Counted from the first letter of the whole stretch, positions 6,366 through 35,059 are shown. The stretch: 63,922 bases of DNA, filler included, from Chrysochromulina tobinii (GCA_001275005.1; 7 parts of 7 records of this genome joined end to end with filler, not necessarily neighbours in it), one strand, 5' to 3'. Translations and numbers: made by a program. Notes: a model not told the origin generated them from the letters alone.

Positions 6366-6414
6366 AAGGACGGCTCCGCACCCCTCGGTCAACACAAGTA
6401 CTGAGTACTCGCTC
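6366..6414. repeat. Dispersed 49-bp repeat; second copy inverted at 20574-20622
   Basis: 48/49 identity between two contigs; contains AGTACTGAGTACT. Confidence 0.85.
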
Positions 6415-7240
6415 TTTCGGGTCACTCCGATATGCTAATGAGGTCGGTCTAACGGTCTCTCCCTGTGGGGTGTTCCCTGTCGCAGGGCCCTGTCGCTTTA
6501 TCTGCCCCATGCTGAAACTGCGAGGGTCCGCCACCCCCCACGGAAAAGGTCGCCAAACACGGGGGCCGCTACAGTAACCTTCTCGACGACCGGCCGTTAT
6601 ACAAAACAGCACTCCTGTCAGAGATACACGACAGTACTACATGCATCATGCAGTCAGGAGTACCTCTGACCTCGAGCGTCTCGAGACTCTCTGTGAGGAC
6701 ACACTCAGTTGACACTCTCAGACTCGCACTCAAACTTGCACACACAAGATACGTCTAACGGATCTCCCTCGGAGATACGTCTAACGGATCTCCCTCGGAG
6801 ATACGTCTAACGGCTCTCCTCTGCGCGGCCCGGGACACACATTCGAGTTATGCATGTTGCGCGCCGTCTCGGGCGCGGCCCATCGGCTCGTCCGAAGCAC
6901 ACGTTAGGCGCCGTCTCGGGCGGTCATATTGCCGTATTCCATGGGCCGTATTTAGCGCACCACGTGCATCGGAGGGTAAGCTTCGAGCGGCAGCCCTTGG
7001 CTCAGATTACACCTCCAGAGCTCGATCAGAGCGAGCTCAGAGGGAGCTCGGAGCTCGCTCAGCTGAGCTGCGAGCTCAGAGGGAGCTCGGAGCTCGCTCA
7101 GCTGAGCTCGCTCTTCTGGGCAGGTCCGAGTTGACGCGAGCTCAGAGGGAGCTCAGAGGGAGCTCAGAGGGAGCTCAGAGGGAGCTCAGAGGGAGCTCAG
7201 AGGGAGCTCAGAGGGAGCTCAGAGGGAGCTCAGAGGGAGC

Positions 7241-16149: not shown

Positions 16150-17070
16150 ATGGCGCCGCCCCTCATGGTCTTCCGCCGATTCGACGGCAGTAACGACGGC
16201 AGCTCCAGCGCCAGGGATGAGGAGGTGCGGTGGCTCAGAGAACAGCTGCAGGAGTCCTCGGGGCAGCTCGGGCGGGTACGGCTCGAGCTCGCGGCGCTGC
16301 AGCGCAGCGTGAGCACCACGGTCGCTGTGGCCACCAACGTCCGCGACGACGTTCGCGGCGGAGAGATCCCACCCAATCCATCGCAAACCAAAACAGGACG
16401 TCACCGCATCCATGGCGTGCACAAGCTTGCGGCGGGCTCGAGCGCAAACCTCGAGCTGCACTTGCCGAAACCCTCCGCCGAACTCGCCGCCAACGATCCC
16501 CTCGCGCGCCGGCCTGACGAGGCGCAGAAGAAGCGCATCATCTCGACGATCTCGCGCCGTGCGCCCTTTGAAGGGAGCGACGAGGCCACCCTCGGGCGCG
16601 TGGCCGACTCGATGGTCCCCGCGAGCTTCGCAGCCTCGACGGACGTGCTGAAAGAAGGCGACGACGGCGACCTCGCGTACTGGGTTTCGTCAGGGTCGCT
16701 CGAAGTGCTCGTCGGCGGCAAGGTGAGAGCGCGCGACGCGAGCGACGCGAGCGACGCGAGCGCAGCCGGCTTTCTGTGAATGTGAATGGCTTTCGCGTCG
16801 GTCCATTGCCACTTCGCTGCGCCCCACCTCACCCCCTTCTTCCCCACACCTCAACCCTTTCTTCCCCCCCTCGACCTCTCTCGCACTGCACCACTGACAC
16901 GCACCCTTCTCCATCGCACCCTTCTCCATCGCACCCCCCCTCCCCTCGCCCCTTCGCCCCTTCCCCCCCTCCTGGCCATTCTCATTCACACCTCCCCTGG
17001 CCGTTCTCATTCACAGCAAGTCGACGTCATCAAAGCGGATGCACTCTTCGGCGAAACGGCGCTCATCTAC
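16150..17070 (+). CDS. Coiled-coil plus cyclic-nucleotide-binding domain protein (PKG-like N-terminus), truncated at the contig end; intron 16723-17016
   Basis: VLKEGDDGDLAYWVSSGSLEV..|..LFGETALIY cNMP motifs. Confidence 0.8.
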
Positions 17071-17170
17071 NNNNNNNNNNNNNNNNNNNNNNNNNNNNNN
17101 NNNNNNNNNNNNNNTTAATTAATTAANNNNNNNNNNNNNNNNNNNNNNNNNNNNNNNNNNNNNNNNNNNN
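17071..17170. other. Artificial contig linker
   Basis: N44-TTAATTAATTAA-N44, with stops in all six frames. Confidence 0.99.
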
Positions 17171-17907
17171 CATTTTTGGTGCCAACAGCCGACTTGAGGC
17201 CGCTGGGCGTCGCAAACTGCATGCTCAGCCACGCCTCGAACTGCGTCCAGAAGCGGGACAAGTACGAGAGGTCGAAGAGGATGAGGACGGTCGTGCCGAG
17301 GTAGAGCATGTTGACCTGTGAATGGGGGAGAGCAATGGCGGGGTGTTAATATAACATAGGTGGTTGAGTGGCGGGGAAAGGGTGGCGAGAAAACTAAGGG
17401 CGGTGCCCAAGGCAAAGCGCCGGCACAGACCTGCGACAGCATGGTCTTGAAATCGGCCGTGCCCTCGTCGCTGCGAATGAGGCCGATGGTAGGCTGGTGC
17501 TGAGGCATGGAACCGCCATCGATCCACACGAGCTCGATCCGCTTGCCAGCCGACGAAACCAGAAAGGCCTTGATGGCCTCGAGCTGTTCGCCGTCGGGGT
17601 CGGGTTGGGTAGGTAGCATCCAGCGATGCGAGATCGACAGGATCTTCTCGACATGTTTGCCGCAGACCACCTCTTCATAGCTGATGGTCTTCTCCATGAA
17701 AGCACTCGGGTGCTTCGCGCGAAGCTCCTGGAAAAAGGGCAGGTTCGTGCCAGAGAACGTGCGGAGAAAGTCCGCCTTGATCATCCAGAACCTACATGTA
17801 GCCGCTCCGGTTGATGAGCCGGCCGTGAGCAGCTTAGTGGCGGCGCCCACTGGTGGGATCGCCTCCTCGCGCTCGGCGAGTGCGTGCTTGCTCGCCGCGC
17901 ATCCCAT
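17171..17907 (-). CDS. HET-like domain protein with an N-terminal MGCAASK acylation motif; intron 17316-17430; 3' truncated
   Basis: ILSISHRW..PDPDGEQL..VWIDGGSMPQ..|VNMLY..TVLIL..YLSRFWTQFE matches the HET motif order (SHxW, WID, IY, RxWxxxE). Confidence 0.75.
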
Positions 17908-18144
17908 GGCACCGAACTGCTCTTGCAAGTGAAGGACATGCGCAAATTTTGGGACTTTCGCAATCCCCGAAACACCGTGAAACACGTGGCCTTCGCGTCC
18001 AGCTCATCTGCCTCCGCGGTGAAGCGCCCTTTTTGAGACGTTCGGCGCTCGTTTTTTCGATAAAAGTTCGCCGGCCTCGACCTGCTCCGCCCGCAGATGT
18101 CTGCCTCGTTTCGCGGCTTCAAGCGCGGTCGCCGACGCTCGGAG

Positions 18145-20493
18145 ATGCCCAAACAGCAGTACAAGGTGAAGGGCGAGACCTTCGAGGTCGACGACCGCTA
18201 TGAGGTCAAGAAGAAAATTGGCGCGGGTGCCTATGGCGTGCTGTGTGCGGCGATCGACAAGAAGGAGAATATTATGGTGGCAATCAAGAAGATCAAGGAT
18301 GCCTTCGACGACGCCATCGATTGCAAGCGCACGCTGCGCGAGGTGCGGCTGATGCAGCACTTTACGCACGAGAACGTGCTCAACTTGCGCGACATTATGC
18401 TGCCCCCGCCGGGTCAGATTGTTGAGTGGAAGGACATCTACCTCGTCCTCGAGCTCATGGACACGGATCTGCATTACATTATCCACTCGAAGCAGGCGCT
18501 CATGGACGACCACATCCAGTACTTCATCTACCAGATCTTGCGAGGCCTGAAGGCCATTCACTCGGCCAAGGTGCTGCACCGCGATCTGAAGCCCAACAAC
18601 TTGCTGGTGAACCAGAATTGCGACTTGAAGATTTGCGACTTCGGGCTCGCGCGAGGCGTGGACGAGGTCGCAGAGACAGGATTTACTGAGTACGTGGTGA
18701 CGCGTTGGTACCGTGCGCCCGAGCTGCTCGTCGAGAACCAGATGTACGACTTGGGCATTGACATTTGGTCTGTGGGCTGCATCCTCGCAGAGTGCCTCGG
18801 TAGGAAGGTGTTGCTCCCGGGCAAGGACTATTTGCAGCAGCTCCGCCTGATCATTGAGACGCTGGGCGAGCCGTCTGCGTCCGACTTGGCGATCCTCGAG
18901 AACCCGCAGGCCGTCGAGTACATCAAGGCGCTTCCCAAGAAGCCCAAGGTGCCCTTCGGGGCTCTATACCCGCAAGCCAACCCCGCCGCCATCGACATGC
19001 TCGAGAAGATGCTGGTCTTCGACCCGTCGAAGCGGATATCGGCGGCGCAGGCGCTCGAGCACCAGTACCTGCGTGCTCTGCACAACGTGAACGACGAGCC
19101 GAGCGCGCCCACCTTTGACTTCTCTTATGTGACTTCCGAAACCACAGAGACGGACCTGAGGAAACTCATCTGGGACCAGCTCCGCAAGTACCACACGGAG
19201 CTAGGCGCCATGCCAGCAAGCTTCGCGGTGTTGGATGGTGGTGGAGGCGATGGTGGCGGAGTCACCCGAGCAGGCAGCAGTCAGAGGCCGTCGGCATCCG
19301 GACGAATCGACGAATCCCTCGCTGACGACGACAACAGCCCTGCGGACGCCTCAAAGCTTTGGGAAGCGCTGCGGTCGGGCGAGGTCGTGCTTGTGCGCCT
19401 CTCCTACGTGCGACGGCTGGCGACGCTTGGGCACCTGCTGCCGAAGCGTCAAGACCTCGAGCCGTCCGCCATCATCTCTGCAGAGGAGCTGGAGATCATC
19501 CATCGCTCGGTCGACCCCGGTATCCATGGACGGCGTGCCGCTGTCGAGGTGCCGCAACACGCCGTGCCCATTGCAGTCGTCAGTCACATGTGGGCGACCC
19601 ATGACCATCCCGACCCCGATGGCACCACCCTCAGCGCCATTCTTGCAGCCTTCGACCAGCCCGACTTCTTCCAGAGCCGCTCCGGCCAGCCGTTCTTCTC
19701 CGAGGTGGGCCTCTTCTTCGACTACAGCTCCCTGTACCAGCGGCTGCGCACGGACCGTGAGCAGCTCGTCTTCGACGCCGCGCTGGGCAACATGAGTATG
19801 TGGTACGCGCATCCGCTCACGACGGTGATCTTGCTCACGGCGGATCGCCCGGGATTGACGCTAAGCTACCACGCACGGGGATGGCCCACGTATGAGTTCT
19901 TCATGGCGCGCGCGGTCAAGCCGACAGACGAGACCTGCGCGTATTGGGAGAAGACGTACGATGTTAGCGCAGGCGTACCGTGCGCGCCCAAAGCACCGAC
20001 AGCGTTTGCGGCACTGCTTCAAGCGCGTACGTTCACGAATGGCGCGGACAAGGACACCGTTACGCAGCTGTACAGTAAGACGCTGTCTGAACACTACGCA
20101 CGTGTCCAGACGCTGCGCTTCGTCAGCCGCGATTGGAGTGCATGCGAGGCGATGGATCTCGCGAGGGCGCTACTCGAATGTGGCGCACCGCACCTCCTCG
20201 ACCTCTGCCTTCGCAACAATCCCAGGATCGGAGACGAGGGTGTGTCTGCTCTCGCTACAGTCTTTGAGGCGGGCGCCCTTCCGCGGCTCAAATCGCTCTC
20301 GCTCTCACTCTGCGGGATCGGCCAGCCGGGCTTCTCGAAGCTGTGCGCCGCTCTGGCCACAGGTAAGACGCCGATGCTCTCACAGCTCTCCTTATACGGC
20401 AACCACCTGATCACGAGCAAAGAGCCACTCAAGGAGGCGATCATGTCGGGCGCACTGCCGAATCTCGACCTGTCGATAGCGGATGAGCCATAA
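18145..20493 (+). CDS. MAP kinase (TEY) fused to a HET-like domain and RI-type LRRs; intronless (alternative ATG at 18097)
   Basis: GAGAYG, VAIKKI, HRDLKPNN, DFG, TEYVVTRWYRAPE; then VVSHMW..HPDPDG..FFDYSSLYQ..MSMWY..RGWPTYE; then LCLRNNPRIGDEG / LSLSLCGIGQPG / LSLYGNHL. Confidence 0.88.
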   Translation: MPKQQYKVKGETFEVDDRYEVKKKIGAGAYGVLCAAIDKKENIMVAIKKIKDAFDDAIDCKRTLREVRLMQHFTHENVLNLRDIMLPPPGQIVEWKDIYLVLELMDTDLHYIIHSKQALMDDHIQYFIYQILRGLKAIHSAKVLHRDLKPNNLLVNQNCDLKICDFGLARGVDEVAETGFTEYVVTRWYRAPELLVENQMYDLGIDIWSVGCILAECLGRKVLLPGKDYLQQLRLIIETLGEPSASDLAILENPQAVEYIKALPKKPKVPFGALYPQANPAAIDMLEKMLVFDPSKRISAAQALEHQYLRALHNVNDEPSAPTFDFSYVTSETTETDLRKLIWDQLRKYHTELGAMPASFAVLDGGGGDGGGVTRAGSSQRPSASGRIDESLADDDNSPADASKLWEALRSGEVVLVRLSYVRRLATLGHLLPKRQDLEPSAIISAEELEIIHRSVDPGIHGRRAAVEVPQHAVPIAVVSHMWATHDHPDPDGTTLSAILAAFDQPDFFQSRSGQPFFSEVGLFFDYSSLYQRLRTDREQLVFDAALGNMSMWYAHPLTTVILLTADRPGLTLSYHARGWPTYEFFMARAVKPTDETCAYWEKTYDVSAGVPCAPKAPTAFAALLQARTFTNGADKDTVTQLYSKTLSEHYARVQTLRFVSRDWSACEAMDLARALLECGAPHLLDLCLRNNPRIGDEGVSALATVFEAGALPRLKSLSLSLCGIGQPGFSKLCAALATGKTPMLSQLSLYGNHLITSKEPLKEAIMSGALPNLDLSIADEP

Positions 20494-20573
20494 GCCCCGG
20501 CCCTCGATACGCCCCGGCCTTCCAGATGCGCATCCGGCCTCAAGGCTCTTACTGTAATGCCCCCAGCCCGAGC

Positions 20574-20622
20574 GAGCGAGTACTCAGTACTTGTGTTGAC
20601 CGAGGGGAGCGGAGCCGTCCTT
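20574..20622. repeat. Dispersed 49-bp repeat (inverted copy of 6366-6414)
   Basis: Direct sequence comparison. Confidence 0.85.
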
Positions 20623-20953
20623 TGAGACGGTGGTGTACTCGTGTGAGCGTGGGGGCCGGCGGGGGGCCGCGACGAAACTGACTGACTGACTGACTGAGAC
20701 CAGTTTTAGAAGCGCTTTTTTCAGGAAAATAAGTCAACGAAATCCAACACGTGTAGCTGTAGGGTGGTCAACACACAACACCGCGTTGTCCCGTTGACGC
20801 TTGACCTTCAGCACCTTCCCGAGTACCGATGTTAGTCGTGTCCCAGAGGCGGGGCTGAGGGTGAGGCCTGAAATAGCTCGGTCCGGGACCGCCGTGTACC
20901 TTCAGTCCCTATTGAAAAACGCCTAATTAGGACATAACTTCACAGAACCCCGG

Positions 20954-23731
20954 TTACCAGGTGGTGTAACTCCACAGATACAACTGGAATCCACTCCGGC
21001 CCTTCACCGCATCTTGCACCGCTGTTTTCCCTGCATCTCCCAAATTATTGTCCCAAAGGTAGAGCCTGGTCAGCACCGCCGTGCCCGTCTGCAAGGCATC
21101 GGCGATGGCTTTGGTACCCTCGTCCCCAATCTTGTTCCCGTTGAGCCACAGCGTGGTCAACACCCTGTTGACCTTCAGCGCCTCCGCGATCGCCTTGGCA
21201 CCCTCAACCTTGATGTAGTTGTACCCGAGGTCCAGGGTGGTCACCACCGCGTTGACCTTCAGCGCCTCCGCGATCGCCTTGGCACCCTCATCCCCGATGC
21301 TGTTGCTCCGGAGGTCCAGGGTGGTGACTACCGCGTTGACCTTCAGCGCCTCTGCGATCGCCTTGGCACCCTCGTCGCCGATCTTGTTGCCGCCGAGCTC
21401 GAGCTTGGTCACCACCGCCGTGCCCGACTGCAAGGCGTCAGCGATGGCTTTGGCACCCTCGTAGCCGATGCTGTTGCCGTACAACTCCAGGTTGCTCAAC
21501 GCCGGCATGAACTTGGTAGCAATGAGGAGAGCGATGACCTTGCAGTCGCCATCCGTCAACCCCTTATGAGACCATTTGAGTTCAGTGGCAGACCGCACTT
21601 GCTTAAGCGAAGCTCCAACCTTCGCAAAGAAGGCCGCCTTCTCAGCTTCTGTCGGCGGGGGCGGCGGGGGCAACCCGCTGCCACCGATTGCGGCCCCGAT
21701 AATTGATCCCACTCCCGCACCCACCACCATCCCCATGGCCCCCCCCATCATCCCCACCGCCTGACCCATCGTTGCGCCCGTCATCATCGCCCCTCCAATG
21801 CCGATCGCCGTGGTGGTCGCGGCGGCAGCGGCTCCTCCCACTGCCGCCTGCGCCGCATCTGTCAGATCACCCCAACGAATGATCTTGCCACTGTGAAGCT
21901 TTGGCTGCTTGTGCCTTCCTTCTGCATCGCAAATTTTCCTCAATTGCCCCTTCAACGGCTGAGCGTAAGGATTTTCAGCAGGAGGCGATTCGTACTCAAT
22001 GAGGTAGGCGGGGAACGCTCGGTGATTCTCGTAAACGATTGCCTCGATATTTGCATGCGAGGTGTTTGAATGGCATCCTGGCGTCGGGAGCTTCGATTCT
22101 GGTTTCGTGAGGTTTTCGGGTCCGGGAGGCACAAGAGCTCGGACGCCCATCTTTCCGAGCGTAACACGCGCCAACAGGATGGTCTTCGTCACACCCATGC
22201 CTTGGTCGCGCGTCTTACGCTCAAAGTACATAGAGAGGCGCGGATCTGCTGCAAAGTAGATGCCCACACCGTACGCATTGTAAACCTCGGACGCATATTG
22301 CGTCATGAAGCCGTTTTTGATGTTCTCTTGCATGGAATCATTCCCGTTGAAGAGCCACACCTCATTCGGGTCACCACCGTTTTGTTCCTTGATCATCTCT
22401 CGCATATCTTTGTAAATGCGATACTGGGCTTCATTGTCATTGCGCACCACCCTTTTCACGACGAGGCCGGGAGTCTTGGCGAAAATCTTGAAGGCGTTGC
22501 CAACGACTGCCGTTTCTTCGGCGTCGCACACGATTTGTTGTGCCGGCCGAGGCGGCAGCTTTGGAGCCTTTGGAGCCTTTGGAGCCCGAAATACCTGGTA
22601 GGGGTGCGGCGTGGGCTTCGGACGGCCGAACAGTCCGCCATCGCCGTCTCCGTCGTCGTCGTCGCCGAATAGGCCACCGCTGCCGCCCTTGGGCTTCGCA
22701 GCCGGCGGCGCGGCGGCGGGCGGCTTGGGAGGCGCCGCGGGGACCTCTGAAGGTACGGTTGGTACCGCCTGGGAAAGAAGCTTGCGAATTAATGCCTGTC
22801 GTGCAGACTTGAGCTTCGTCGTCTTCGCTTGCGCCACCTCCTTCGCCTCCCGACGCTCAGCCTGGTCCTGTGAGACGGCCGCCTGCCGCTCCTTCTCTGC
22901 CGCCGCCAGTCTTGCGGACTTGGGCTTCATCGTCTTTGCTGGCGCCGCGTCCTCCGCCGCTCGGAGCTCAGCCTGGGCCTGGGAGAGCTGCGGCGGGTAG
23001 CCCTGCCGCAGCGGCATTCCCTGCTGCTGCGGAGAGTGCACTTGAAGCGGCATGCCTCCCTGCTGCGGCGGGTACGCCATGAGCCGCTCGATCGCGAGAT
23101 CCACGTCATACCTCGTTGCCGCGAGCGCCCTATACGCTTGGTCCTCGGTGAAGCCGGTGGTGGTGATGGCGCCTAAGGTATTATTCCAGAAATTCGCACT
23201 CTCCTCGCCGGCCTTCTCCGCCGCCCGCTCGGCCTGGGCCTGTGAGAGCTGCGGTGTGTACGGTACCTTGCAGATCTGAGCCTCCGAGTCGGGTGAGACG
23301 AGCATGTCCCAGATTCCATAGCACCCGAAGTTGACAGAGACTCGGCGATTCTTGTCAGGCAAGTCCACAGTGCAGGCCCCGAGAACCGTACCAACGTCGT
23401 TTTTCATGAGTTCTGCCCGATTGATGCGCGAGACCACTTTGTCACCTTTGGCGAAGCCACCAAGAAGCGGAACGTCAAGCTGTAGCTTCTTGGGCGCACC
23501 ACCAAAGAGCCCATACTTGCGCATCATACTGAACTCATCGAAATCGATTTCTTGGAACCACCCGCTCACCTCCCCGTCCACGACTTCACCCATCCCGATG
23601 CGGCGTGCGGCCGGAAACTTTTCGTGGCTCCTCTGCAGACGGCGAGCGGCGATTGTCCTCGAACGGCTTGAGCAGTCGCTGAGCGCTTCGTTGCCCATGA
23701 GCGCCGAAATAATCCGGTCTTCTTGATCCAT
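20954..23731 (-). CDS. UBA, PARP-type ADP-ribosyltransferase domain and RI-type LRR protein; intronless
   Basis: UBA-like GFTEDQAYRALAATRYDVDLAIERL; PARP-like NEVWLFNG..YGVGIYFA..SMYF..ILLARVTLG..EAIVYENHRAFPAYLIEY; about six 28-aa LRRs of the form LxLxxNxIGDEGAKAIAEALKVN. Confidence 0.85.
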   Translation of the reverse strand: MDQEDRIISALMGNEALSDCSSRSRTIAARRLQRSHEKFPAARRIGMGEVVDGEVSGWFQEIDFDEFSMMRKYGLFGGAPKKLQLDVPLLGGFAKGDKVVSRINRAELMKNDVGTVLGACTVDLPDKNRRVSVNFGCYGIWDMLVSPDSEAQICKVPYTPQLSQAQAERAAEKAGEESANFWNNTLGAITTTGFTEDQAYRALAATRYDVDLAIERLMAYPPQQGGMPLQVHSPQQQGMPLRQGYPPQLSQAQAELRAAEDAAPAKTMKPKSARLAAAEKERQAAVSQDQAERREAKEVAQAKTTKLKSARQALIRKLLSQAVPTVPSEVPAAPPKPPAAAPPAAKPKGGSGGLFGDDDDGDGDGGLFGRPKPTPHPYQVFRAPKAPKAPKLPPRPAQQIVCDAEETAVVGNAFKIFAKTPGLVVKRVVRNDNEAQYRIYKDMREMIKEQNGGDPNEVWLFNGNDSMQENIKNGFMTQYASEVYNAYGVGIYFAADPRLSMYFERKTRDQGMGVTKTILLARVTLGKMGVRALVPPGPENLTKPESKLPTPGCHSNTSHANIEAIVYENHRAFPAYLIEYESPPAENPYAQPLKGQLRKICDAEGRHKQPKLHSGKIIRWGDLTDAAQAAVGGAAAAATTTAIGIGGAMMTGATMGQAVGMMGGAMGMVVGAGVGSIIGAAIGGSGLPPPPPPTEAEKAAFFAKVGASLKQVRSATELKWSHKGLTDGDCKVIALLIATKFMPALSNLELYGNSIGYEGAKAIADALQSGTAVVTKLELGGNKIGDEGAKAIAEALKVNAVVTTLDLRSNSIGDEGAKAIAEALKVNAVVTTLDLGYNYIKVEGAKAIAEALKVNRVLTTLWLNGNKIGDEGTKAIADALQTGTAVLTRLYLWDNNLGDAGKTAVQDAVKGRSGFQLYLWSYTTW

Positions 23732-24204
23732 GCTGGCCCTCTGTTGGGTATGCGATTGCGTCTCACGATCCGCTATGCGTGCACCTTGGATGAGCGAGCG
23801 AGAGCGAGTGCAGAGCGCGTACCACACTTCGCGAGCGAGGAAGAATGCGAGCACGACCGTTTTCTTTGTCACAACCGACGATCTAACGAAGCCGCGCGCG
23901 CGCGCGCGCGGACGGGCGACCTGATCGGTCGGCAGAATACCCACTGATGACCCAGAGGCCTATATATACCGATCGTTTCGCCCTGTGGGTCCTTCAAGAG
24001 TGTGCGGGAGCACGCTCCGGCTCACAGCCGTTTCACACAGAGCTGCTGATGACCGCCAATCAACCCAACGCGACCACGGGCGCGACCAACACACAGGAAA
24101 TTCTCTGATTGAGCGGATCATCTCCGGGGGGGTCGCGCGCCGCCGCCCGCACTCCCACGGCACTCTTCTTTCCACGAGGATCAAAGTGTCAGGAATTTGG
24201 CGAG

Positions 24205-27200
24205 ATGCGTGAGAGATTGAGTGCTGATTTGGGCGTCCCGACGTCAGACTTCATGGTATCCGACTATTCCCAGGCCTGGTCTCCGCCCCTCTGCTCAGAT
24301 CCCACGCTCCGATCGACTCTTCCGAACGGCGCCCTCGTCGAGGCATTCATCTTCCCCGACACGGGTCGCGGGCTGCGCGTCACCCGCGCCGTCGCCAAGG
24401 GCGAGGAGCTTCTCGCCGTGCCGCTGGACGACTGCTGGCACGCGGCCGACGCGCGCAAGTGCGCCGAGCTTCAGCCGCTGCTCGAGTCCGGCGCGGCTCT
24501 GAGCGATTTCGACGCGTCTGTTCTGCAGCTCTTGCTGTCGCGCGCTGGCAAGACCAGCGTGAGCGAGCTGCGCAAGGCGCACCTCGCCGAGATGCCCTCG
24601 GCGTACAACTCGACGCTGTTCTGGTCGGACGCGGACATGGCGGAGCTCAAGGGCTCGCCGTGGCAGCAGCTCGCGGAGCGGCTCGCTGAGGAGGTGGCCG
24701 CTGATTGGGCCGCGCTCCGAGCGCTCGTGAGCAGTGCGGCCACTGCGCATCCCATCCCCGAGGAGCCTGTCGACGTCGCCGACGGCGCAAGCGACGGCGC
24801 AAGCGACGGCGCGACCACGAGCAACGGCGCGCCCGCCGCCTCGTCAGCGGGCTCCTCCTCGACCATCGGCCCATGCCTCGACTTTCTCGAGGAGCACGGC
24901 ATTACGTGGGACGACTACCTGTGGGCCTACGCCACGCTCAAATCCCGCGCGGCCGAGGCGTCGGTCGAGGGCGTGAGCGGCGTGCGGCTGATGGCTCCGG
25001 GGTTTGACCTGATGAACCATGACGACTCCATCGAGCCGGGCACATCGCACTACTACGACGCAGCACGGCGGGCGCTCATCGCCGTCGCGCCGCGCGACTA
25101 CGCGGCCGGTGAGCAGGCCTGCATCTCGTACGGCGCCGCCTCGAACGGCTCGTTACTCTTAGTCGGTGGGTTCGTGCTCCCTGCCCAGCCGGGCAACCGG
25201 TTCGACCACGTCGAGATCTCGCTCACGACGCTGGTGGCGGCGCCAGACCTGACGACCTTCATGATGGCAGCGCCCGACGCGTCCGGCGCGACTGCGAAGA
25301 CGCCCTTCGAGTTCACGCAAGTGCCCGACGACGCTGCGATCGCGGCCGCGGGCTGCGCGGCTCCCTTCACCACAAAGCACTTGCTGATGCAGGCTGAGCC
25401 GCTGCCGCAGCCGTTGCTCACGTACGTGCGGCTCGACCGGTTGAACGGGGAGGACCTCGAGCTGTACGCGAAGCGCGCGCAGAAGGCGGGTGAGCCGCTG
25501 CACGAGGCGGTGCACGCAAGCCCGTATTGCATGCAAGTGCTCACCATGGCGCCCCACTCCCCACAGGTGAGCCGCTGCACGAGGCGGTGCGCAAGCCCGC
25601 GCCGCTCGATGCTCTAAACGAGGTGCTCTCGCTTGGGGCGCTGCGAGGGGTTGTCGCTTCGATGCGGGACGGGTACCCGACCACGGCAGACGAGGACGAG
25701 GCGCTGCTCGCGCGCGGCTTTAGCGCATTGGGTGAGCGCAAATGGTGCGCCGTCACGCTGCGCCTGTCGGAGAAGAGGTACGCTGATGGCCACTGATGAC
25801 CTGCCTCGCATGCAAGTGCTCACCACAGCGCCATCTCCCCACAGAATCCTCGGAGCGTCGCTCTCTGCCATCGACGCATGCCTCCTTCCACAGCTGAGGG
25901 CGCTCCTGGAGGACGCGGCCAAGCAGGAGGCGGCGTGCCGTCGTTCGGGCAAGCCGTGGAGTGAGTTGCTCACTCGGCGTGCCACGACGCTCGAGGCCTC
26001 GACGGCGCGCATGCATCGGGTCTTCGAGCGGTTACATGCGTCCAATTTGGGCGAGGGTATGCTCACTACGGCGCTCCTCGCGCAGGCATGCACCGCCTTC
26101 TTTATGCTGCTGGCCGTGCCGCCCCTCGCCAGCCACCCGCTCGCGGCGCACACGGCCTTTGTGCCCGCCGCATGGCCCTTTGGCAGCGAGGTCGCAGCTC
26201 CCGGGAGTGGTGCTGGAGCTACCACCACCGGGAGTGGTGCTGGAGCTACCACCGGGAGTGATGCTGGAGCGCTCCCGCCGCTCCCGCCTCTCAAGCCTGA
26301 GATGCTCGCCGTCTCCTCCTCCTCCTCCTCCTCTTCCTCGCCGACGTCGCTGCCTTATCTCGAGCTCTACCGATCCAAAATGGCCTTCTGGGGCGCCTAC
26401 CTCTTGTCCCAGTGGGGCGTGGCACGCGCATTGTCGGTGGCGGAGTCCTCCACCATGCAGCGCGAAGCGGAAGCGCTGCGCCGCGAGTACGCTTGATGGA
26501 CGCTTGATGGACGCTTGATTGTCGCTTGATGGACGCTGGATGGTCGCTTGATTGGCGCTTGGTTTGCGCTTGATGGACGCTTGATTTGCGCTTGATAGTC
26601 GCTTGATCGCTGCTTGATGAACGCTTGATTGCCTTCATCAGGTACGCCTGGAGTGTGCCTACCGAGACTGCGCTGGCGACCCTCGCGCGGTACGCTCCGA
26701 TCATCGAGCTAGGCGCGGGCACCGGCCACTGGGCCGCTTTGCTTCGCGCGCGCGGCGTCGATGTGCTTGCGTACGACACCCGCTGCTGGTCGGATGCGTT
26801 CGCCGACGCTGATGCCTCGGGCGGCACGGCGGGAGGCCAGGCGGGAGGGGCGTCCACGGGGTCGGCGGCGCCGGGTGGGGTCGCCACAGGCACGAGCCTC
26901 ATCGAGGGCGATCGCGACTTGTGCGTCGCAGAGGGGGGGCCGGAGGCCGCCGCCGCCCATGCAGGTCGCGCCCTGCTCCTTGCATGGCCGGACTACCGTG
27001 GGCTGGGCACGTATGCCAGCTGCTGCCTCGCACAGTACACTGGCTCGACGCTCCTTTTGCTCGGGGAGTGGCGCGGGCGCACCCTCGGCGTGCATGCACC
27101 GCCGGGCATGGGCGAGCATGGGCAGTCGTTCTCGGCCGCCTTCCAAATGAAGGTCGAGGCCGAGTGGCGCCTTGTTGAGCAAGAACGGCTGCCCAGCTGG

Positions 27201-27257
27201 CCTTTCTTCATCGACTCGCTCATGGTGTGGACGCGGAGCGGAGAGTGTGACGGCTGA
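24205..27257 (+). CDS. SET-domain (Rubisco-LSMT/SETD3-like) lysine methyltransferase fused to a class I SAM-dependent methyltransferase; exons 24205-25489, 25567-25777, 25845-26486, 26642-27257
   Basis: GRGLRVTR, WAYATLKSRA, MAPGFDLMNH, ISYG..SNGSLL, YPTTADEDEALL, RLSEK|RIL; C-terminal YAWSVP..IIELGAGTGHWA..VLAYD..LLLAWP. The three GT-AG introns preserve the frame. Confidence 0.8.
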
Positions 27258-27462
27258 GACGCTGTGGCGTGTGGGGTTGTCATGGGGTTGCTTGGCTCTC
27301 AAAATCTCTCTCACAAGGGGAGCACAAAACGTACGGGCAGGTTCGTTCATCGGTTGTACCTAGCTTCCTTTTTAGGTCCTGTTTTCAAGTTTCTAGCTAA
27401 CCCGCGCGCGGCTCCACATTCGTATAATTACGCCGACTCTCTGTCGCGACTTCGTCTTTCGC

Positions 27463-28515
27463 ATGATGGCCTCTGGGGACTCGTCGGCGACCAGTACAAT
27501 TGACGAGGTGCTTTGGAGTACCAGTCTACCATCGACGAAGTATTCGCTGCAGGCGATACAACTTCAGGAACAGCTTCACGACTTTGAACGCCATCAGAAG
27601 GAAGCACTTCGGCCCAGGAGAGAGTCCGCCCGCTTCCACAGTGCGGAGGAGTTCATGGGAATTCAGTGCATGCTGGTGCTGCCCGGCAGGACCGCAGAAA
27701 GAAAGCTTCGCCGCGCTTGCCAGCAAGGGAATTCGGAGGAGGTCCGCGGACTGCTCGCCGCAGGCTGTGAGCCAGCGGCGACCGACGAGGCCTTCGAGCG
27801 CACCGCCCTGCACTGGGCAGCGCTGAGCGGCGATGTCGAAGTCGGAGAGCTGCTTTTTACACACCCTTCAACCATATCGCTCTTCGATGCCCAGGACCTG
27901 TCCAATTTCACCGCCCTGCACATCGCTGCAGAGCGCGGGCACACGGGCTTCATTGAGTTACTCATACGGCACAGGGCGGATCCGTTGCTTCGAACGTCGG
28001 CGGGGAACACGCCGCTGCACTACGCGGCCTTCAACAACCACATCGAGGCAGCGCAGTTCATTCTCAACACGTCGATCTCGAATTCGCAGGACCTCGATCT
28101 CGAATTCGACGTGACGTTAAGCAACATGCGCAACAATGACAGACAGACTCCGATCGAGCTGGCACAGAGCCGGGGCCATTTGCTCCTCGCATCACGTCTT
28201 GAAGACATACTCGAAGACTTTGTGAGGCCTATTATTGAGCACAACGAGATGCTGGCGAGCCACGGCCTATTAGTCGTGAACCACAGAATACAAAGCGCCT
28301 ATCTCGAGAGCATAAATCAGACCATCGCCGAGAACGTTGCATCTCGCCCTCTCGCCCCGTGCGATCGCAGAGGGTTAAGAGGGTTTGAGACATCTCCCTG
28401 GGGCACAAAACCGGCTGCCGCCCAACAGCTAAGGGATCGCATTCAAGAGCACCGAGGCATCCAAATCCACAGACTACAACCGAACTACACCGACTTCAAT
28501 CGACCGGTACGGTAG
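27463..28515 (+). CDS. Ankyrin-repeat protein
   Basis: RTALHWAA, FTALHIAAERGH, GNTPLHYAAFNNH, QTPIELA. Confidence 0.9.
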   Translation: MMASGDSSATSTIDEVLWSTSLPSTKYSLQAIQLQEQLHDFERHQKEALRPRRESARFHSAEEFMGIQCMLVLPGRTAERKLRRACQQGNSEEVRGLLAAGCEPAATDEAFERTALHWAALSGDVEVGELLFTHPSTISLFDAQDLSNFTALHIAAERGHTGFIELLIRHRADPLLRTSAGNTPLHYAAFNNHIEAAQFILNTSISNSQDLDLEFDVTLSNMRNNDRQTPIELAQSRGHLLLASRLEDILEDFVRPIIEHNEMLASHGLLVVNHRIQSAYLESINQTIAENVASRPLAPCDRRGLRGFETSPWGTKPAAAQQLRDRIQEHRGIQIHRLQPNYTDFNRPVR

Positions 28516-28710
28516 TTCGACCGGTGGCGTGGGCTTACTCGTATACTTGGCACTTAGGCTTAGCCTTGGCGCTCCGCTTAGGGGGCGCGAGACGTCTCCG
28601 ATCGAGAAAGCCACCGGCCAGTGCTCCAGCCGACTGTATAGTTTGAGAAAGTTTCATACTCTAAGAGTTAAGCCAAATTAGGGGAAGTATAATACTACGA
28701 AGAAGTACGA

Positions 28711-30087
28711 TTACACTAACTCTGGCGCTAACGCAGGAATAGAGTACTCCATACTTACAGAACTTAGGTACTTGCCCAATGAGCTCAAGCGTACACTTCC
28801 AGAGGAAAATAGCGCCCTCGGCGAGAGAACTTCGGCGCGCACTTCGGCCGCGGCAGCAAGGCGGGCGCTCGTGACGGCGCTCCCCATGCGGGACCCATTG
28901 CCATTCTTGCTGCCGTGGCCGTGCTTGGTGGATTCCACACGAGTCGCAGGCACCAGCAGCACCTCGATCAAGGCGTGGGCGGGCAGGCGGATAGCGCCGC
29001 CCTCGATGCCGTCGAGTGCGGTGCAGGGCAGGCTGAGCACTCCGGCCGCGGCCGCAAGGTTAGCATTGAAGCTCGCGCGGCAGATCAGCTGCCCTGAGCG
29101 CGACTTATCGCGCACCGTGAGCACCACATCGCCGCACACGAGCACCGGAGCGTCGCCTCGACTCATGCTCTCGTACGCGTAGGAGCAAAGGCGCTCTGAT
29201 CCGTCCTCCTCCCCTGGCTCCTCCCCTACACGATACTCTGTCTCGACCCTCCTCGCCGAGGTACTCGCATAGAGAGCCTTTGGACCGGAGCTCAAGAGCT
29301 GCATCAAGAGCACGCACGGCGCCGGGTGGAGCACCGGAAAGCCACGCAGTACCACACCACGCAGCTCGCACCACTGCCCAGCAGCGACGTCAAAAAAAGG
29401 GCCCGTCTGGCTTTGGGCCCCATCGACGCCTTCAGCGTCCTCCATCGCACTCGCCACCTTGCGTTGCAAGGTCTCGCCATCGGCATTCTTAGGGAAGAAG
29501 TTTCCCGATATGAGCGGCATCGTGCTCAGCGGGAAGGCCTCCGCGACGATGCCGAGCCGCAGCCGCATGTAAGACGCATAGCCGACTATCAGCACCGTGA
29601 GCAGCACCGAAAATATGATGGACGGTGAGGCGGCGCCCCAGGAATACGCGATCAATACGCACATCAACGAGAACACCGTTCGGAGAAGCGTACTCAAGAT
29701 CTCGTCGAATTCGTCCAACATGCTGTCGACCGCAGAGTGTATAGAGCCCTCAGGTCCGCGCAGTGCCTGGCCCGGGCCAAGCATGGAGAGCATGGTCGTG
29801 CCGAGCACATTGCGAAGCGAGAGGCACATGACTATCGTCATGCCCGTGATGACTAGTACCTGGGCGAGCGTCGACTCGTCACCTGGTCGAGCGTCGACCC
29901 CCGAGTTACCCGTAAACCAGGTCATCTGAGTATGCACGAAAGATGAGTACATGCAGCCTGCAAGCAACGCCGAGATGTGGCCAACCACATGGCAATTCTT
30001 GGAGTAGAAATGGAGCTCGCGCTCGCGGATGTGGATCAGTCTCAGCCTGAACCGGTTTTCGAGCGCCTTCTTCTCGGCGAAGATCAT
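28711..30087 (-). CDS. Four-TM Orai-like/PGG-like membrane domain plus a PTEN/tensin-type C2 domain
   Basis: ERELHFY..SALLAG TM1 and GPGQALRGPEGS motifs with four hydrophobic segments; C-terminal VCGDVVLTV..ICRASFNA..LSLPCTALD. Confidence 0.55.
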   Translation of the reverse strand: MIFAEKKALENRFRLRLIHIRERELHFYSKNCHVVGHISALLAGCMYSSFVHTQMTWFTGNSGVDARPGDESTLAQVLVITGMTIVMCLSLRNVLGTTMLSMLGPGQALRGPEGSIHSAVDSMLDEFDEILSTLLRTVFSLMCVLIAYSWGAASPSIIFSVLLTVLIVGYASYMRLRLGIVAEAFPLSTMPLISGNFFPKNADGETLQRKVASAMEDAEGVDGAQSQTGPFFDVAAGQWCELRGVVLRGFPVLHPAPCVLLMQLLSSGPKALYASTSARRVETEYRVGEEPGEEDGSERLCSYAYESMSRGDAPVLVCGDVVLTVRDKSRSGQLICRASFNANLAAAAGVLSLPCTALDGIEGGAIRLPAHALIEVLLVPATRVESTKHGHGSKNGNGSRMGSAVTSARLAAAAEVRAEVLSPRALFSSGSVRLSSLGKYLSSVSMEYSIPALAPELV

Positions 30088-33107: not shown

Positions 33108-33231
33108 GTTGACTCGTGTGAACCCTTTTTTTTACACGAAAAGCCAGGTCGTCGCACATCGTGCATTCCCAAAGCCGCTTCGTTCGGCGCTCGCGTTTTC
33201 GTTGGGAAATTCATTTTCCCCGAAAGTCTAG
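33108..33231. repeat. Right arm of the imperfect inverted repeat
   Basis: Reverse complement aligns with 30517-30615. Confidence 0.8.
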
Positions 33232-33240
33232 TCGTCGTGC

Positions 33241-33271
33241 CGACCAATCACTAGTGTCCAGTGACCAATCA
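33241..33271 (+). promoter_or_regulatory. Tandem CCAAT boxes (GACCAATCA x2) just upstream of ATG 33293
   Basis: Two identical 9-mers 21 bp apart; function inferred only. Confidence 0.35.
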
Positions 33272-33292
33272 GGAACTCCAGGAAGTGCCTCC

Positions 33293-35059
33293 ATGAAGCG
33301 TCGTCGGGATGGCGACGTCGGAGGTGGCGATGACATCGGCGGCGACGGCGTCAACGGCGATGTGAGGGTGCGAAGCGCCGAGGGCGAGGAGGTCCCGTGG
33401 TCCCGTTTGGCCGCGGCGCGATCGGCGGCGCTCGCCAACTGGGTGAGCGACACGGGCGGAGCCGAGGGGGCGTTCGCCACTCTGGTGCCTGCGGCTGCGC
33501 TCCGCGCGCTCGCGCGCGTCGCCGAGGGCGGTGCGGAGGATGGCAGGGCGCTGGAGGGGTGCTCGCTCGCGCAGCTCGCGCAGCTGTTGTACGGCGCGCA
33601 CTTTCTCGACGTGGACGTCGAGCTTCTCCGACTCCTCTCCCGTTCCCTGTGCACCGGCCACCTCGCCAGCAAGAGTGGCGCGGAGCTCGGGCGGCTGCTG
33701 GGCGTCGTGAGCGACTTCCCCACCGAGGCGGAGCGGCAGGCGGCGACGGAGGAGCCGCTCTACACGCAAGACGCTCAGCACGACGCCACTGCACTGCGAG
33801 CGGCCGACGCACCCGCACCGCCAGCGCCAGTGTGCTGGCTCTCGACGCAGCTCGTCAACGAGGACGCCCTCGAGGACGCCCTCGCAGACGCTGACGTGCC
33901 GACGCTGTGTGCGCTCAAGGGCGTGAGCCTCGCGTGGCGTGCGCGGGCGCGGCGCGTCCTGTGCGCGCGGCTGTGCGCACGCGTCGGCCTGCCGCTCACG
34001 AGCAACCTCGCTAAGGTGACTGAGCTCGACCTCTCGGGCAGCCGCGCCGCCGGTCGCCTCATCGGCGACGCGGTCGACGCGTCGCGCTGGCTGCCCAACC
34101 TGGCAAAGGTGACGGGGCAGGGTGGCTTCGAGGTGGACGTGGCCGCGCTGAGGCGCGTGGCGTCATCGGATGTATCGGAAGAATATGAAGATGGTACGCA
34201 ACCGTATCCGATGGCAGGGGTGCGCGCATGCATCCGCGGCGAGGGCGAGGCGCCGATGGAGGTGCTGCTCGCGGCGTGCGCTCTGCGCGATGGCGAGGCG
34301 CACGTGCCGGCGAACGCGTTCCGCGACGACACGTCCATGACGTCGATCCAGCTGCCCGCCGGCCTCATGAGCATCGGTGAGAGCGCCTTCTATGAGTGCT
34401 CCTCGTTGACATCGATGGAGCTGCCCGCCGGCCTCACGAGCATCGGCGGGGGCGCCTTCTTTGGCTGCTCCTCGATGACTTCGATCGAGCTGCCCGCCGG
34501 CCTCACGAGCCTCGGTGGGGGCGCCTTCTGTGGCTGCTCCTCATTGACGTCGATCGAGCTGCCTGCCGGCCTCACGAGCATTGGTGAGTACGCCTTCGAT
34601 GGCTGCTCCTCGATGACGTCGATCGAGCTGCCCGCCGGCCTCACGAGCCTCGGTGGGGGCGCCTTCTATGAGTGCTCCTCATTGACGTCGATCCAGCTGC
34701 CCGCCGGCCTCACGAGCATTGGTGAGTACGCCTTTGCTTACTGCTCCTCGATGACGTCGATCGAGCTGCCCGCTGGCCTCACGAGCATCGGTGAGAGCGC
34801 CTTCTTTCGCTGCTCCTCGATGACGTCGATCGAGCTGCCTGCCGGCCTCACGAGCATCTGTGAGTGCGCCTTTCAGGGCTGCTCCTCAATGACGTCGATC
34901 GAGCTGCCCGCCAGCCTCACGAGCATCGGTAAGGGGGCCTTCCGTGGCTGCTCCTCGTTGATGTTGATCAAGCTGCCCGCTGGCTTCTATGACAGCATTC
35001 TCGAATCTGCTGCAGTGCCTCCCAGTGCCATCCTATGCTTTGCACCAAAAGTTGGTTGA
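33293..35059 (+). CDS. SKP1-like, F-box-like and BspA-type (LRR_5) repeat protein
   Basis: VRVRSAEGEEV..LAQLLYGAHFLDV..LL..LASKSGAELGRLLGVVSDFPTEAE (SKP1 pattern); DVPTLCALKGVSLAWR (F-box pattern); nine 23-aa SxTSIELPAGLTSIGxxAFxxCS units. Confidence 0.8.
   Translation: MKRRRDGDVGGGDDIGGDGVNGDVRVRSAEGEEVPWSRLAAARSAALANWVSDTGGAEGAFATLVPAAALRALARVAEGGAEDGRALEGCSLAQLAQLLYGAHFLDVDVELLRLLSRSLCTGHLASKSGAELGRLLGVVSDFPTEAERQAATEEPLYTQDAQHDATALRAADAPAPPAPVCWLSTQLVNEDALEDALADADVPTLCALKGVSLAWRARARRVLCARLCARVGLPLTSNLAKVTELDLSGSRAAGRLIGDAVDASRWLPNLAKVTGQGGFEVDVAALRRVASSDVSEEYEDGTQPYPMAGVRACIRGEGEAPMEVLLAACALRDGEAHVPANAFRDDTSMTSIQLPAGLMSIGESAFYECSSLTSMELPAGLTSIGGGAFFGCSSMTSIELPAGLTSLGGGAFCGCSSLTSIELPAGLTSIGEYAFDGCSSMTSIELPAGLTSLGGGAFYECSSLTSIQLPAGLTSIGEYAFAYCSSMTSIELPAGLTSIGESAFFRCSSMTSIELPAGLTSICECAFQGCSSMTSIELPASLTSIGKGAFRGCSSLMLIKLPAGFYDSILESAAVPPSAILCFAPKVG

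What the first reader, a model, noticed from the sequence alone, without database searches (positions are those of the whole stretch)
17171..23731. Candidate algal innate-immunity cluster of three genes with NAD-linked effector domains
Seen: consecutive genes encode (i) an MGCAASK-anchored HET-like protein, (ii) MAPK-HET-LRR and (iii) UBA-PARP-LRR. Established: fungal HET domains are TIR-related cell-death effectors, PARP-type ADP-ribosyltransferases act in antiviral defence, and RI-type LRRs are sensors in animal NLRs. Inference: an LRR-sensor/effector system without a NACHT or NB-ARC module, possibly directed against giant viruses. Caveat: these domain families may be greatly expanded in this lineage, so clustering could be chance.
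Basis: partly seen in the sequence, partly recalled or inferred. Interest (0 to 1): 0.78.

Follow-up and report, generated by a model that had tools for sequence, protein, structure and literature searches.

The report
Algal helicase receptor with swappable effectors
In a haptophyte alga, the first of three neighbouring genes is cut off by an assembly gap and is really a 2,200-residue protein joining a predicted TIR-like enzyme domain to a helicase whose close copies swap their end domains, so it likely works as an immune receptor, while the grouping of the three genes is probably chance.

Summary
The three genes are real, adjacent and found in RNA libraries, in Chrysochromulina tobinii or a sister species. 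Three parts of the reading change.
(1) Only 9% of gene 1 is in the window. Two other assemblies close the gap: it is 2,197 aa, a HET/TIR-like domain plus a superfamily-1 helicase with intact motifs, so it does have an NTPase module. Ten close relatives share its core but swap N- and C-terminal domains at fixed junctions; 25 of 120 helicase relatives carry a TIR or HET-like domain.
(2) The 'HET' domain misses Pfam HET. Its model best matches TIR and deoxyribosyltransferase folds (Z 4-6, weak) and keeps an invariant W-x3-E.
(3) Gene 3's PARP has Asn where PARP12 has His. Gene 2 is a young fusion of a MAPK duplicate (97% DNA identity to a stand-alone copy, pN/pS about 0.9) to HET-like-LRR.
Nothing links the three functionally: the two HET-like domains are about 27% identical and the families are large. 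No antiviral role or NAD activity was shown. Verdict: immune-like parts, cluster unproven; the helicase-centred receptor family is the notable find.

The parts
17071..17170 (.). Scaffold gap (N44 + 12-nt spacer + N44) that cuts gene 1; the DNA left of it does not match the 8 kb that L001 holds there
17171..17315 (-). Gene 1 exon 2, first 48 codons: second half of the HET/TIR-like domain with RFWTQFE (W-x3-E). The exon runs on for about 6 kb in L001 (8154-2038): coiled coil, conserved unnamed region, SF1 helicase (aa 986-1385), helical repeats, two Cys-rich repeats, an EF-hand-like motif read by eye
17316..17430 (-). 115-nt GT-AG intron of gene 1
   Evidence: sequence; skipped in 3 of 3 RNA runs and 0 of 1 DNA run
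17431..17907 (-). Gene 1 exon 1: MGCAASK start (predicted myristoylation/palmitoylation, recalled motif) and first half of the HET/TIR-like domain (SHRW..PDP, WIDGGS..Q)
   Evidence: profile of the gene 2 family matches the spliced protein at E 5e-15
17908..18096 (.). 189-nt spacer between the divergent start codons of genes 1 and 2 (likely shared promoter; inferred)
18097..19227 (+). Gene 2 MAPK part (GAGAYG, VAIKK, HRDLKP, DFG, TEY all present); recent duplicate of a stand-alone MAPK (L003, 97% DNA identity over 769 nt) that stops where the fusion goes on
19342..20100 (+). Gene 2 HET/TIR-like domain (SHMW..HPDPDG, FFDYSSLYQ, RGWPTYE)
20104..20493 (+). Gene 2 C-terminal ribonuclease-inhibitor-type LRRs
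20565..20697 (.). Short dispersed high-copy repeat between the 3' ends of genes 2 and 3; second copy at about 6366-6421
20954..21600 (-). Gene 3 RI-type LRRs (28-aa repeats); five concave positions 23% identical between repeats against 80% for the framework
21950..22540 (-). Gene 3 PARP-family catalytic domain with N-Y-E in place of H-Y-E
23081..23155 (-). Gene 3 UBA domain
   Evidence: E 8.7e-5, 22.7 bits against cut-off 22.4
20954..23731 (-). Gene 3, whole ORF, 925 aa

Best explanation
The locus holds three separate members of large domain-shuffling gene families of a Chrysochromulina-type haptophyte, which likely lie together by chance in a fast-changing region, and gene 1 likely acts as an NLR-like immune receptor that uses a superfamily-1 helicase, not NACHT or NB-ARC, as its switch.

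Shown: the architecture of all three genes; intact helicase motifs; exchange of N- and C-terminal modules around a conserved core in close relatives; splicing of gene 1; the recent MAPK duplication and in-frame fusion in gene 2; the His-to-Asn PARP.

Inferred mechanism for gene 1: (1) lipid on Gly2/Cys3 would hold the protein at a membrane; (2) the helicase would bind foreign or aberrant nucleic acid and, with ATP, open or cluster; (3) clustering would bring the TIR-like domains together; (4) their conserved Glu would cleave NAD+ or a related nucleotide, giving a signal, growth arrest or death. Paralogues would plug other outputs into the same switch.

Gene 2 would be a HET-like-LRR sensor-effector that recently gained a MAPK copy now under relaxed selection, as a decoy or a young neutral fusion. 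Gene 3 would be an LRR binder with an atypical, perhaps weak or inactive, ADP-ribosyltransferase domain.
For: Gene 1 length and helicase; motifs LTPHQ, APAGAGKT, DEAH, LLSDVSQSQ, EVVRSSKR, DGLE, LYRALTRA are intact and conserved over 109 helicase stretches. Module exchange: 10 of 10 near-full-length close relatives share gene 1 residues 389-1708 and differ before YWLEVAI and after LAFDP, with three unrelated N-terminal types (5 HET-like, 3 helical, 2 other) and C-termini with TIR_2, RelA_SpoT+MORN or TPR+SEC-C. Of 120 listed helicase relatives, 19 carry the HET-like domain, 7 TIR_2, 13 a kinase, 3 a caspase, 1 PARP, 1 ART, 1 RelA_SpoT, and many carry LRR, TPR, WD40, ankyrin or RCC1 repeats. 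Kinase, C2, TIR, TIR_2, RelA_SpoT and HET are all on the list of fungal NLR effector domains in PMC9815663 (passages). TIR-like fold: pLDDT 90.4; 18 of the top 20 VIA rows are TIR/SEFIR or deoxyribosyltransferase/MilB; W-x3-E is invariant in 115 of 115 aligned rows. Two of 83 HET-like relatives carry NACHT. Virus-infected and resistant cells of another haptophyte express TIR genes, and recovered cells also LRR and NACHT genes (PMC12489294, passages). Independence of the three genes: the HET-like domains are 27% identical (gene 2 against P0158, a 90% stand-in for gene 1) and in separate branches; 1,706 clusters in the family.
Against: Nothing functional was tested. Fold Z-scores are 4.1-5.8, below the tool's threshold of 8, and Foldseek gives no match at E <= 0.001. 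HET biochemistry is itself unknown (PMC10890737). The helical (MLKL-like by eye) and HEPN/CHAT-like (by eye) N-termini of paralogues got no Pfam or PDB support. Many helicase partners are not immune-typical (RCC1 15 of 120, F-box, PPR, actin, EF-hand), and I had no control for how often such domains sit on any long algal protein. Some mosaics may be assembly chimeras of near-identical paralogues (P0156 and P0001 look mosaic). Gene 1 itself has no recognised repeat sensor domain. Chance clustering rests on assumed family sizes.
Confidence: 0.5

Rival explanations
1. The locus is a functional unit. Genes 1 and 2 form a head-to-head sensor/helper pair like plant RRS1/RPS4 (recalled): the MAPK copy is an integrated decoy for a pathogen factor, and its HET-like domain pairs with that of the helicase protein. 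Gene 3 adds an ADP-ribosylation output.
For: Divergent starts 189 nt apart. Both genes carry the same TIR-like family. The MAPK copy is young, keeps its catalytic motifs and differs from the stand-alone copy by 9 non-synonymous and 3 synonymous changes outside the activation loop (pN/pS 0.89; P = 4e-4 against an assumed omega of 0.1). At 3 of the 9 sites both outgroup MAPKs agree with the stand-alone copy, and at none do both agree with the fused copy. All three genes are covered in the RNA runs laid.
Against: The domains are only about 27% identical and not sister clades. No kinase fusion among 152 other HET-like representatives, so the fusion is young and local while gene 1's family is old and widespread. 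Close neighbours are expected in a 59-Mb genome with 16,777 genes (PMC4580454). pN/pS near 1 fits drift as well as a decoy role.
Confidence: 0.17
2. The genes are neutral products of domain shuffling in a repeat-rich, transposon-associated region. Most copies have no immune role, and gene 2 is a decaying chimera.
For: pN/pS about 0.9 in the fused kinase. A high-copy repeat lies between genes 2 and 3. A Ulp1-like fragment (read by eye) and short repeats lie beyond gene 1. Partner domains are very mixed. The PARP lacks its His.
Against: Long open frames (2,197, 798 and 925 aa), invariant catalytic-type residues in both the HET-like domain and the helicase, a spliced transcript, and swaps at fixed junctions rather than at random. 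The Asn is shared by 4 of 4 PARP relatives, so it is not fresh decay.
Confidence: 0.2
3. The families are real enzymes and signalling proteins but serve non-immune roles, such as membrane or Ca2+ signalling through cADPR-like products, phagosome handling of prey, or RNA/DNA metabolism.
For: MG-type N-termini in 28 of 152 HET-like and 15 of 120 helicase relatives. EF-hand, C2, PH, FYVE and MORN partners. The organism is phagotrophic (PMC4580454). Helicase profile hits include splicing and quality-control helicases.
Against: Large expansion, variable LRR surface positions, NACHT-bearing relatives and recurrent TIR, caspase and ART partners fit conflict systems better.
Confidence: 0.13

Closest known systems
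Fungal HET domain (PF06985) and fungal NLRs (HET-E/D/R; Dyrka 2014 PMC4986451, Wojciechowski 2022 PMC9815663)
   Same: TIR-related alpha/beta domain with three motif blocks and a conserved Glu; N-terminal effector position; reassortment of effector domains around a central NTPase. Dyrka 2014 already found HET homologues in Haptophyceae.
   Different: No Pfam HET match. The central NTPase of gene 1 is an SF1 helicase, not NACHT/NB-ARC. Genes 2 and 3 have no NTPase and use LRRs.
Enzymatic TIR domains and the related nucleoside deoxyribosyltransferase fold (SpbK, SARM1, ThsB, TIR-STING, RPP1)
   Same: Best structural matches of the model; W-x3-E on the helix after the third strand (equivalence to the catalytic Glu inferred from position; TIR spacing recalled).
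   Different: Z only 4-6, 2-14% identity in the top 20 rows; extra HPDP loop and C-terminal helices; activity untested.
Schlafen SLFN11/SLFN5 helicase, ZNFX1, RIG-I-like receptors and bacterial defence helicases (HamB, GajB, Nhi)
   Same: Effector-plus-helicase layout. Weak SLFN-g3_helicase Pfam hits. SLFN11 at E 6.8e-7 by profile. A paralogue hits HamB, GajB and Nhi weakly.
   Different: No Schlafen RNase domain or CARD detected. Matches cover mainly the Walker A region, and Brr2/ASCC3 score higher through two cassettes. No close prokaryotic relative (1 Walker-A-only hit among 281 candidate stretches). Effector modules are exchanged on both sides.
Mono-ADP-ribosyltransferases PARP12/14/15 and tankyrases
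   Same: Best PDB sequence matches (PARP12 E 2.8e-10); GIYFA Tyr kept; Glu in EAIVY.
   Different: Asn replaces the His of the H-G-T motif in this gene and in 4 of 4 close relatives; fused to UBA and RI-type LRR; no WWE, macro or zinc-finger domain detected.
Plant NLRs with integrated domains and head-to-head pairs (RRS1/RPS4, RGA4/RGA5; recalled, not looked up)
   Same: A host signalling protein (MAPK) fused to a TIR-like-LRR gene, divergent from a TIR-like NTPase gene.
   Different: No NB-ARC; pairing not shown; the fusion is very young and absent from the other family representatives examined.

Membership tests
HET domain (PF06985) | Match to the Pfam HET profile | tested here: not met
   No hit for either domain at E 10; none shown among 83 relatives at E 0.01, 9 of which had rows hidden; not among the 25 of 38 families shown for 47 rows at E 5
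HET domain (PF06985) | Three motif blocks (S-x-x-W; D-x5-Q; R-x-W-x3-E) with a conserved Glu | tested here: met
   S 97%, W 98%, D, Q, G, W, E 100% of 115 rows; gene 1 keeps SHRW, D-x5-Q and W-x3-E. The HET consensus is recalled; the conserved Glu is stated in PMC9815663
HET domain (PF06985) | Induces cell death | not testable with these tools
   needs expression assays
TIR superfamily | Flavodoxin-like alpha/beta fold whose nearest structures are TIR/SEFIR | tested here: inconclusive
   11 TIR/SEFIR and 7 deoxyribosyltransferase/MilB chains in the top 20, but Z 4.1-5.8, rmsd 3.4-4.7, 85-115 aligned; Foldseek top rows TIR-STING and RPP1 TIR at E 0.07-0.08
TIR superfamily | NAD+ hydrolysis or cyclase activity through the catalytic Glu | not testable with these tools
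   Glu present on the helix after strand 3; activity untested
NLR / STAND receptors | Central NACHT or NB-ARC domain | tested here: not met
   None in genes 1-3; only Walker-A-level nSTAND hits at E 0.02-0.05 in gene 1. Present in 2 of 83 HET-like relatives
NLR / STAND receptors | Interchangeable effector domains around a conserved NTPase core | tested here: met
   Three N-terminal types and unrelated C-termini on one core in 10 close relatives; assembly chimeras not excluded for every row
Superfamily 1 helicases | Q motif, Walker A, Walker B DE, motifs III-VI | tested here: met
   (Q, G-x-G-K-T, D-E-x-H, S-Q, V-R-x3-R, G-L-E, R-A-L-T-R-A conserved); Pfam UvrD_C_2 and SLFN-g3 in a paralogue; motif numbering recalled
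Schlafen proteins | N-terminal AlbA-type Schlafen RNase domain | tested here: not met
   No such Pfam hit in gene 1 or its paralogues; the N-terminus is HET/TIR-like
PARP/ARTD family | ART catalytic domain by sequence | tested here: met
   PF00644 27.3 bits against cut-off 26.7; PARP12 E 2.8e-10
PARP/ARTD family | His of the H-Y-E/H-Y-[I/L] NAD-binding triad | tested here: not met
   LFNGN against LFHGT; Asn in 4 of 4 relatives
MAP kinases | Catalytic motifs and TEY activation motif | tested here: met
Functional gene cluster / paired receptors | Linkage beyond chance or conserved across genomes | not testable with these tools
   No whole genome held; L001 and L002 are near-identical to the window and so not independent lineages; only assumed-frequency estimates
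Functional gene cluster / paired receptors | Physical interaction of the gene 1 and gene 2 products | not tested

The most novel reading that the evidence does not exclude
Haptophytes, dinoflagellates, cryptophytes, pelagophytes and uncultured protists share an undescribed class of NLR-equivalent receptors. In it a Schlafen-like SF1 helicase replaces NACHT/NB-ARC, senses viral nucleic acid and fires interchangeable death effectors (TIR-like HET, TIR, a four-helix pore-former, a HEPN nuclease, caspase, ART, RelA), exchanged as cassettes at fixed junctions. In the boldest form (about 0.1), gene 1 pairs head-to-head with a newly born MAPK-decoy sensor.
Probability: 0.35. Interest if true: 0.88.

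Novelty: new variant of a known kind. Interest (0 to 1): 0.6.

Why it matters
Antiviral mechanisms of microalgae are largely unknown; PMC12489294 states that TIR-based antiviral systems had not been described in them. A helicase-centred receptor with swappable effectors in a culturable haptophyte would give a concrete, testable candidate. The domain is also a handle on HET biochemistry, which is still undetermined even in fungi (PMC10890737, PMC12881547). The MAPK fusion is a rare view of an integrated-domain gene at birth. The three-gene 'cluster' as such adds little unless linkage is shown.

Tried and rejected
Whole-genome clustering test: impossible, no genome held. Complex prediction of the two HET-like domains was not available: no verdict. 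Pfam, PADLOC and NCBIfam gave no name to the HET-like domain; the Atlas gave only unnamed, mostly haptophyte clusters at 0.86-0.87, leads only. The MLKL-like and HEPN/CHAT-like readings of paralogue N-termini are by eye only: Pfam on whole proteins and cut stretches and a PDB profile search found nothing, and the Atlas query for this did not complete. My idea that the region after YWLEVAI is a degenerate CHAT domain got no support. Viral contigs: no relative of the helicase, HET-like-LRR or PARP domain in 4 of 4 scans that ran; these pattern scans find close relatives only. No BFVD match at E <= 0.001, no plasmid match, no Rfam match. Folding HET-like plus LRR together returned only LRR matches, so the domain was refolded alone. 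Tandem duplication of genes 1 and 2: rejected (quick tree only, long branches flagged). The MAPK fusion as an assembly artefact is unlikely: it stands in the window, L001, L002 and P0001, and an RNA contig starting 30 nt inside the kinase tail runs on into the linker in 3 of 3 runs, one base short of the tool's 31-nt bridging rule. Which copy changed its activation loop could not be polarised. Summed contig depth is not a copy number and was used only as a hint.
Full report
Source and layout. The window is a GC-rich eukaryotic scaffold with six gaps; no whole genome is held. The helicase region of gene 1 is 100% identical to Chrysochromulina tobinii Ctob_006821, so the organism is that haptophyte or a sister species. 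Genes 1 and 2 are divergent, with starts 189 nt apart; genes 2 and 3 are convergent, with a short high-copy repeat between them. A DNA pattern scan of metagenomes gave 3 loci. L001 and L002 match window 17171-29201 at 99.99% and run through the gap at 17071-17170. Their 8 kb beyond it match nothing in the window, so the scaffold is mis-joined there or the gap is far larger than drawn.

Gene 1. Only 207 of 2,197 residues are in the window. The 115-nt intron is skipped in 3 of 3 RNA runs and 0 of 1 DNA run; those contigs may include close paralogues, and one RNA run also holds an unspliced piece. The full protein reads: MGCAASK, HET-like domain (about 38-280), coiled coil, a conserved unnamed region, a helicase (986-1385), helical repeats, two Cys-rich repeats and an EF-hand-like motif (the last read by eye). 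Pfam hits for the helicase are weak (ResIII 2e-4, DEAD 1e-3, SLFN-g3 0.08), but the motifs are intact and conserved over 109 stretches and in a 25-row alignment. A profile hits Brr2/ASCC3 (E 6e-9, two cassettes summed) and SLFN11 (6.8e-7), then RIG-I, SLFN5, PcrA and ZNFX1, mostly around Walker A. The motif pattern is SF1-like (numbering recalled). Prokaryotic genomes gave 1 Walker-A-only match among 281 candidate stretches.

The helicase family. The search gave 123 proteins of 1,120-3,567 aa, 120 listed, with named members from haptophytes, dinoflagellates, cryptophytes and a pelagophyte. Ten near-full-length close relatives (82-100% identical in the helicase; an eleventh, P0155, lacks the N-terminal part) share residues 389-1708 and diverge outside two fixed junction motifs. 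Five have the HET-like N-terminus (two of them called from an internal Met), three a helical domain behind the same or a similar leader, and two a third type. By eye these look MLKL/HeLo-like and HEPN-plus-CHAT-like (recalled patterns), but no library confirmed it. C-termini include MIB_HERC2-SH3-C1-TIR_2, RelA_SpoT-MORN and TPR-SEC-C. Across the 120, 19 have the HET-like domain and 7 TIR_2 (25 with either), 13 a kinase, 3 a caspase, 1 PARP, 1 ART, 5 LRR, 5 TPR, 5 WD40, 4 ankyrin and 15 RCC1 (counted by hand). This overlaps the fungal NLR effector list in PMC9815663 (passages). Against this: many partners are not immune-typical, there is no control set, and Ctob_006821 itself looks mosaic (N-terminal part 100% to P0160, core 99-100% to gene 1), which may be gene conversion or mis-assembly.

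The HET-like domain. It has 1,706 clusters at 50% identity. I scanned 83 of the 150 listed: 57 show LRRs, 2 NACHT, and single cases carry ubiquitin, Tudor, a phosphatase, MORN, HEAT or ART; none shows Pfam HET (9 had rows hidden). D, Q, G, W and E of three motif blocks are invariant in 115 of 115 rows. The model (pLDDT 90.4) has strand-helix alternation with W-x3-E on the helix after strand 3. VIA's top 20 of 48,161 chains are 11 TIR/SEFIR, 7 deoxyribosyltransferase/MilB and 2 uncharacterised proteins, at Z 4.1-5.8 with none at 8 or more; Foldseek's top two are TIR-STING and RPP1 TIR at E 0.07-0.08. So it likely works like a TIR, it is not a Pfam HET member, and NAD activity is inferred. HET homologues in haptophytes and the HET-TIR link are already in print (PMC4986451, passages). 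How HET kills is unknown (PMC10890737 and PMC12881547, passages). The domains of gene 2 and of P0158 (90% identical to gene 1 in this part) are 27% identical over 182 aa. Genes 1 and 2 fall in separate branches of a quick 75-row tree built from every third representative plus helicase-linked copies; the careful search did not finish and long branches were flagged.

Gene 2. L003 holds a stand-alone MAPK, 97% identical over 769 nt, that stops exactly where gene 2 runs on into a linker and the HET-like-LRR part. Contigs fork at both ends of the kinase, and its depth is about 1.6 times that of the flanks in the DNA run, which fits two copies (a hint only). Outside the activation loop there are 9 non-synonymous and 3 synonymous differences in 247 codons (pN/pS 0.89). 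At 3 of the 9 sites both outgroups (MPK4, Mps1) side with the stand-alone copy, at 1 one does, 1 is mixed and 4 are uninformative. The activation loop differs by a compensated frameshift with TEY kept. L003 comes from another data set, so strain differences contribute. P0001 joins stand-alone-type residues to the same HET-like-LRR and may be a chimera or an allele. No kinase occurs in 152 other HET-like representatives. This is a young fusion under relaxed constraint; decoy function is inference.

Gene 3. UBA, PARP and LRR are confirmed. The catalytic domain is closest to PARP12 but has Asn for the His, as do 4 of 4 relatives at 85-96% identity; 2 of them also have LRRs and 1 has a peptidase S51 N-terminus. 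Activity is therefore doubtful or atypical (role of the His recalled). In four LRR repeats the five concave positions are 7 of 30 identical against 111 of 138 for the framework (positions chosen by eye).

Is it a cluster? This could not be tested directly. Summed depth over the LRR and over gene 1's 5' end is about 340 and 9-19 times single-copy level in one DNA run, a hint of many close paralogues. With 16,777 genes (PMC4580454, passages) and assumed frequencies of 0.5-3% for HET-like and 1-4% for LRR genes, the chance of at least one such triple per genome runs from 0.01 to 0.84, before allowing for post-hoc choice. The head-to-head pair of genes 1 and 2 is the only feature that suggests coupling; the complex prediction that could have probed it was unavailable. 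No viral relative was found. The giant-virus link rests only on analogy with Gephyrocapsa huxleyi, whose infected and resistant cells express TIR genes and whose recovered cells also express LRR and NACHT genes (PMC12489294, passages).

Literature. Nine searches answered. I saw listings for all; term passages of PMC12881547, PMC10890737, PMC9815663, PMC4986451, PMC12489294, PMC4580454, PMC3417536 and bioRxiv 10.64898/2026.04.20.719644; and outline plus passages of bioRxiv 10.64898/2026.10.11.758280. No supplements were read. None describes a helicase-centred protist receptor family, but the library lacks most subscription journals, so absence from print is not established. Earlier AI notes of this scan describe the HET/TIR-like-LRR family in other algae and none the helicase family; they are leads, not support.

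Verdict. Observation partly confirmed; interpretation partly supported. The parts are immune-like, the cluster is unproven and likely incidental, and the helicase-centred receptor family, a new variant of the effector-NTPase-sensor design, is what deserves follow-up. Interest 0.6.

Noticed in passing
window 17071-17170: The scaffold join here is wrong or hides more than 8 kb: L001 1-8009 has no match in the window. The cyclic-nucleotide-binding-type gene left of the gap (16150-17070, read by eye) is therefore not a close neighbour of gene 1.
   Followed up: partly
window 20565-20697 and 6366-6421: Short dispersed repeat with very high summed depth in the DNA run (about 470 times single-copy level) and many different flanks; no Rfam match. 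Possibly a MITE or SINE-like element.
   Followed up: partly
window 18664-18685: The fused and stand-alone MAPK differ in the activation loop by a compensated frameshift (one base lost, one gained) that rewrites about seven residues just before TEY.
   Followed up: partly
proteins P0007, P0030: HET-like domain with LRR and NACHT in one 2,000-2,400-aa protein: true NLR-type members of the same family.
   Followed up: no
proteins P0223, P0224, P0230, P0232, P0180: Helicase proteins with two or three HET-like domains, some interrupted by insertions; four relatives also hit the membrane family Tmemb_185A.
   Followed up: partly
L001 3-692 (+): ORF fragment that reads like a Ulp1/SENP protease (His..Asp..Gln-Cys, by eye), often transposon-borne, beyond the 3' end of gene 1; two 58-nt direct repeats at 1188-1317.
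   Followed up: no
window 21670-21850 (-): Gly/Ala/Met-rich hydrophobic stretch between PARP and LRR in gene 3, absent from two close relatives that have Pro-rich linkers there.
   Followed up: no
window 33122-35059 (+), 27397-28515 (+), 40469-44683 (-): Other repeat or conflict-type genes nearby: BspA-type LRR (E 1.5e-70), ankyrin repeats, and a 1,404-aa RING/MYND protein.
   Followed up: no
window 60660-61634 (+): CxC5 cysteine cluster associated with KDZ transposases (E 1e-4).
   Followed up: no
L001 2038-2402 against L002 17638-18173: The C-terminal 57-aa tandem repeat of gene 1 has two copies in L001 and three in L002.
   Followed up: no
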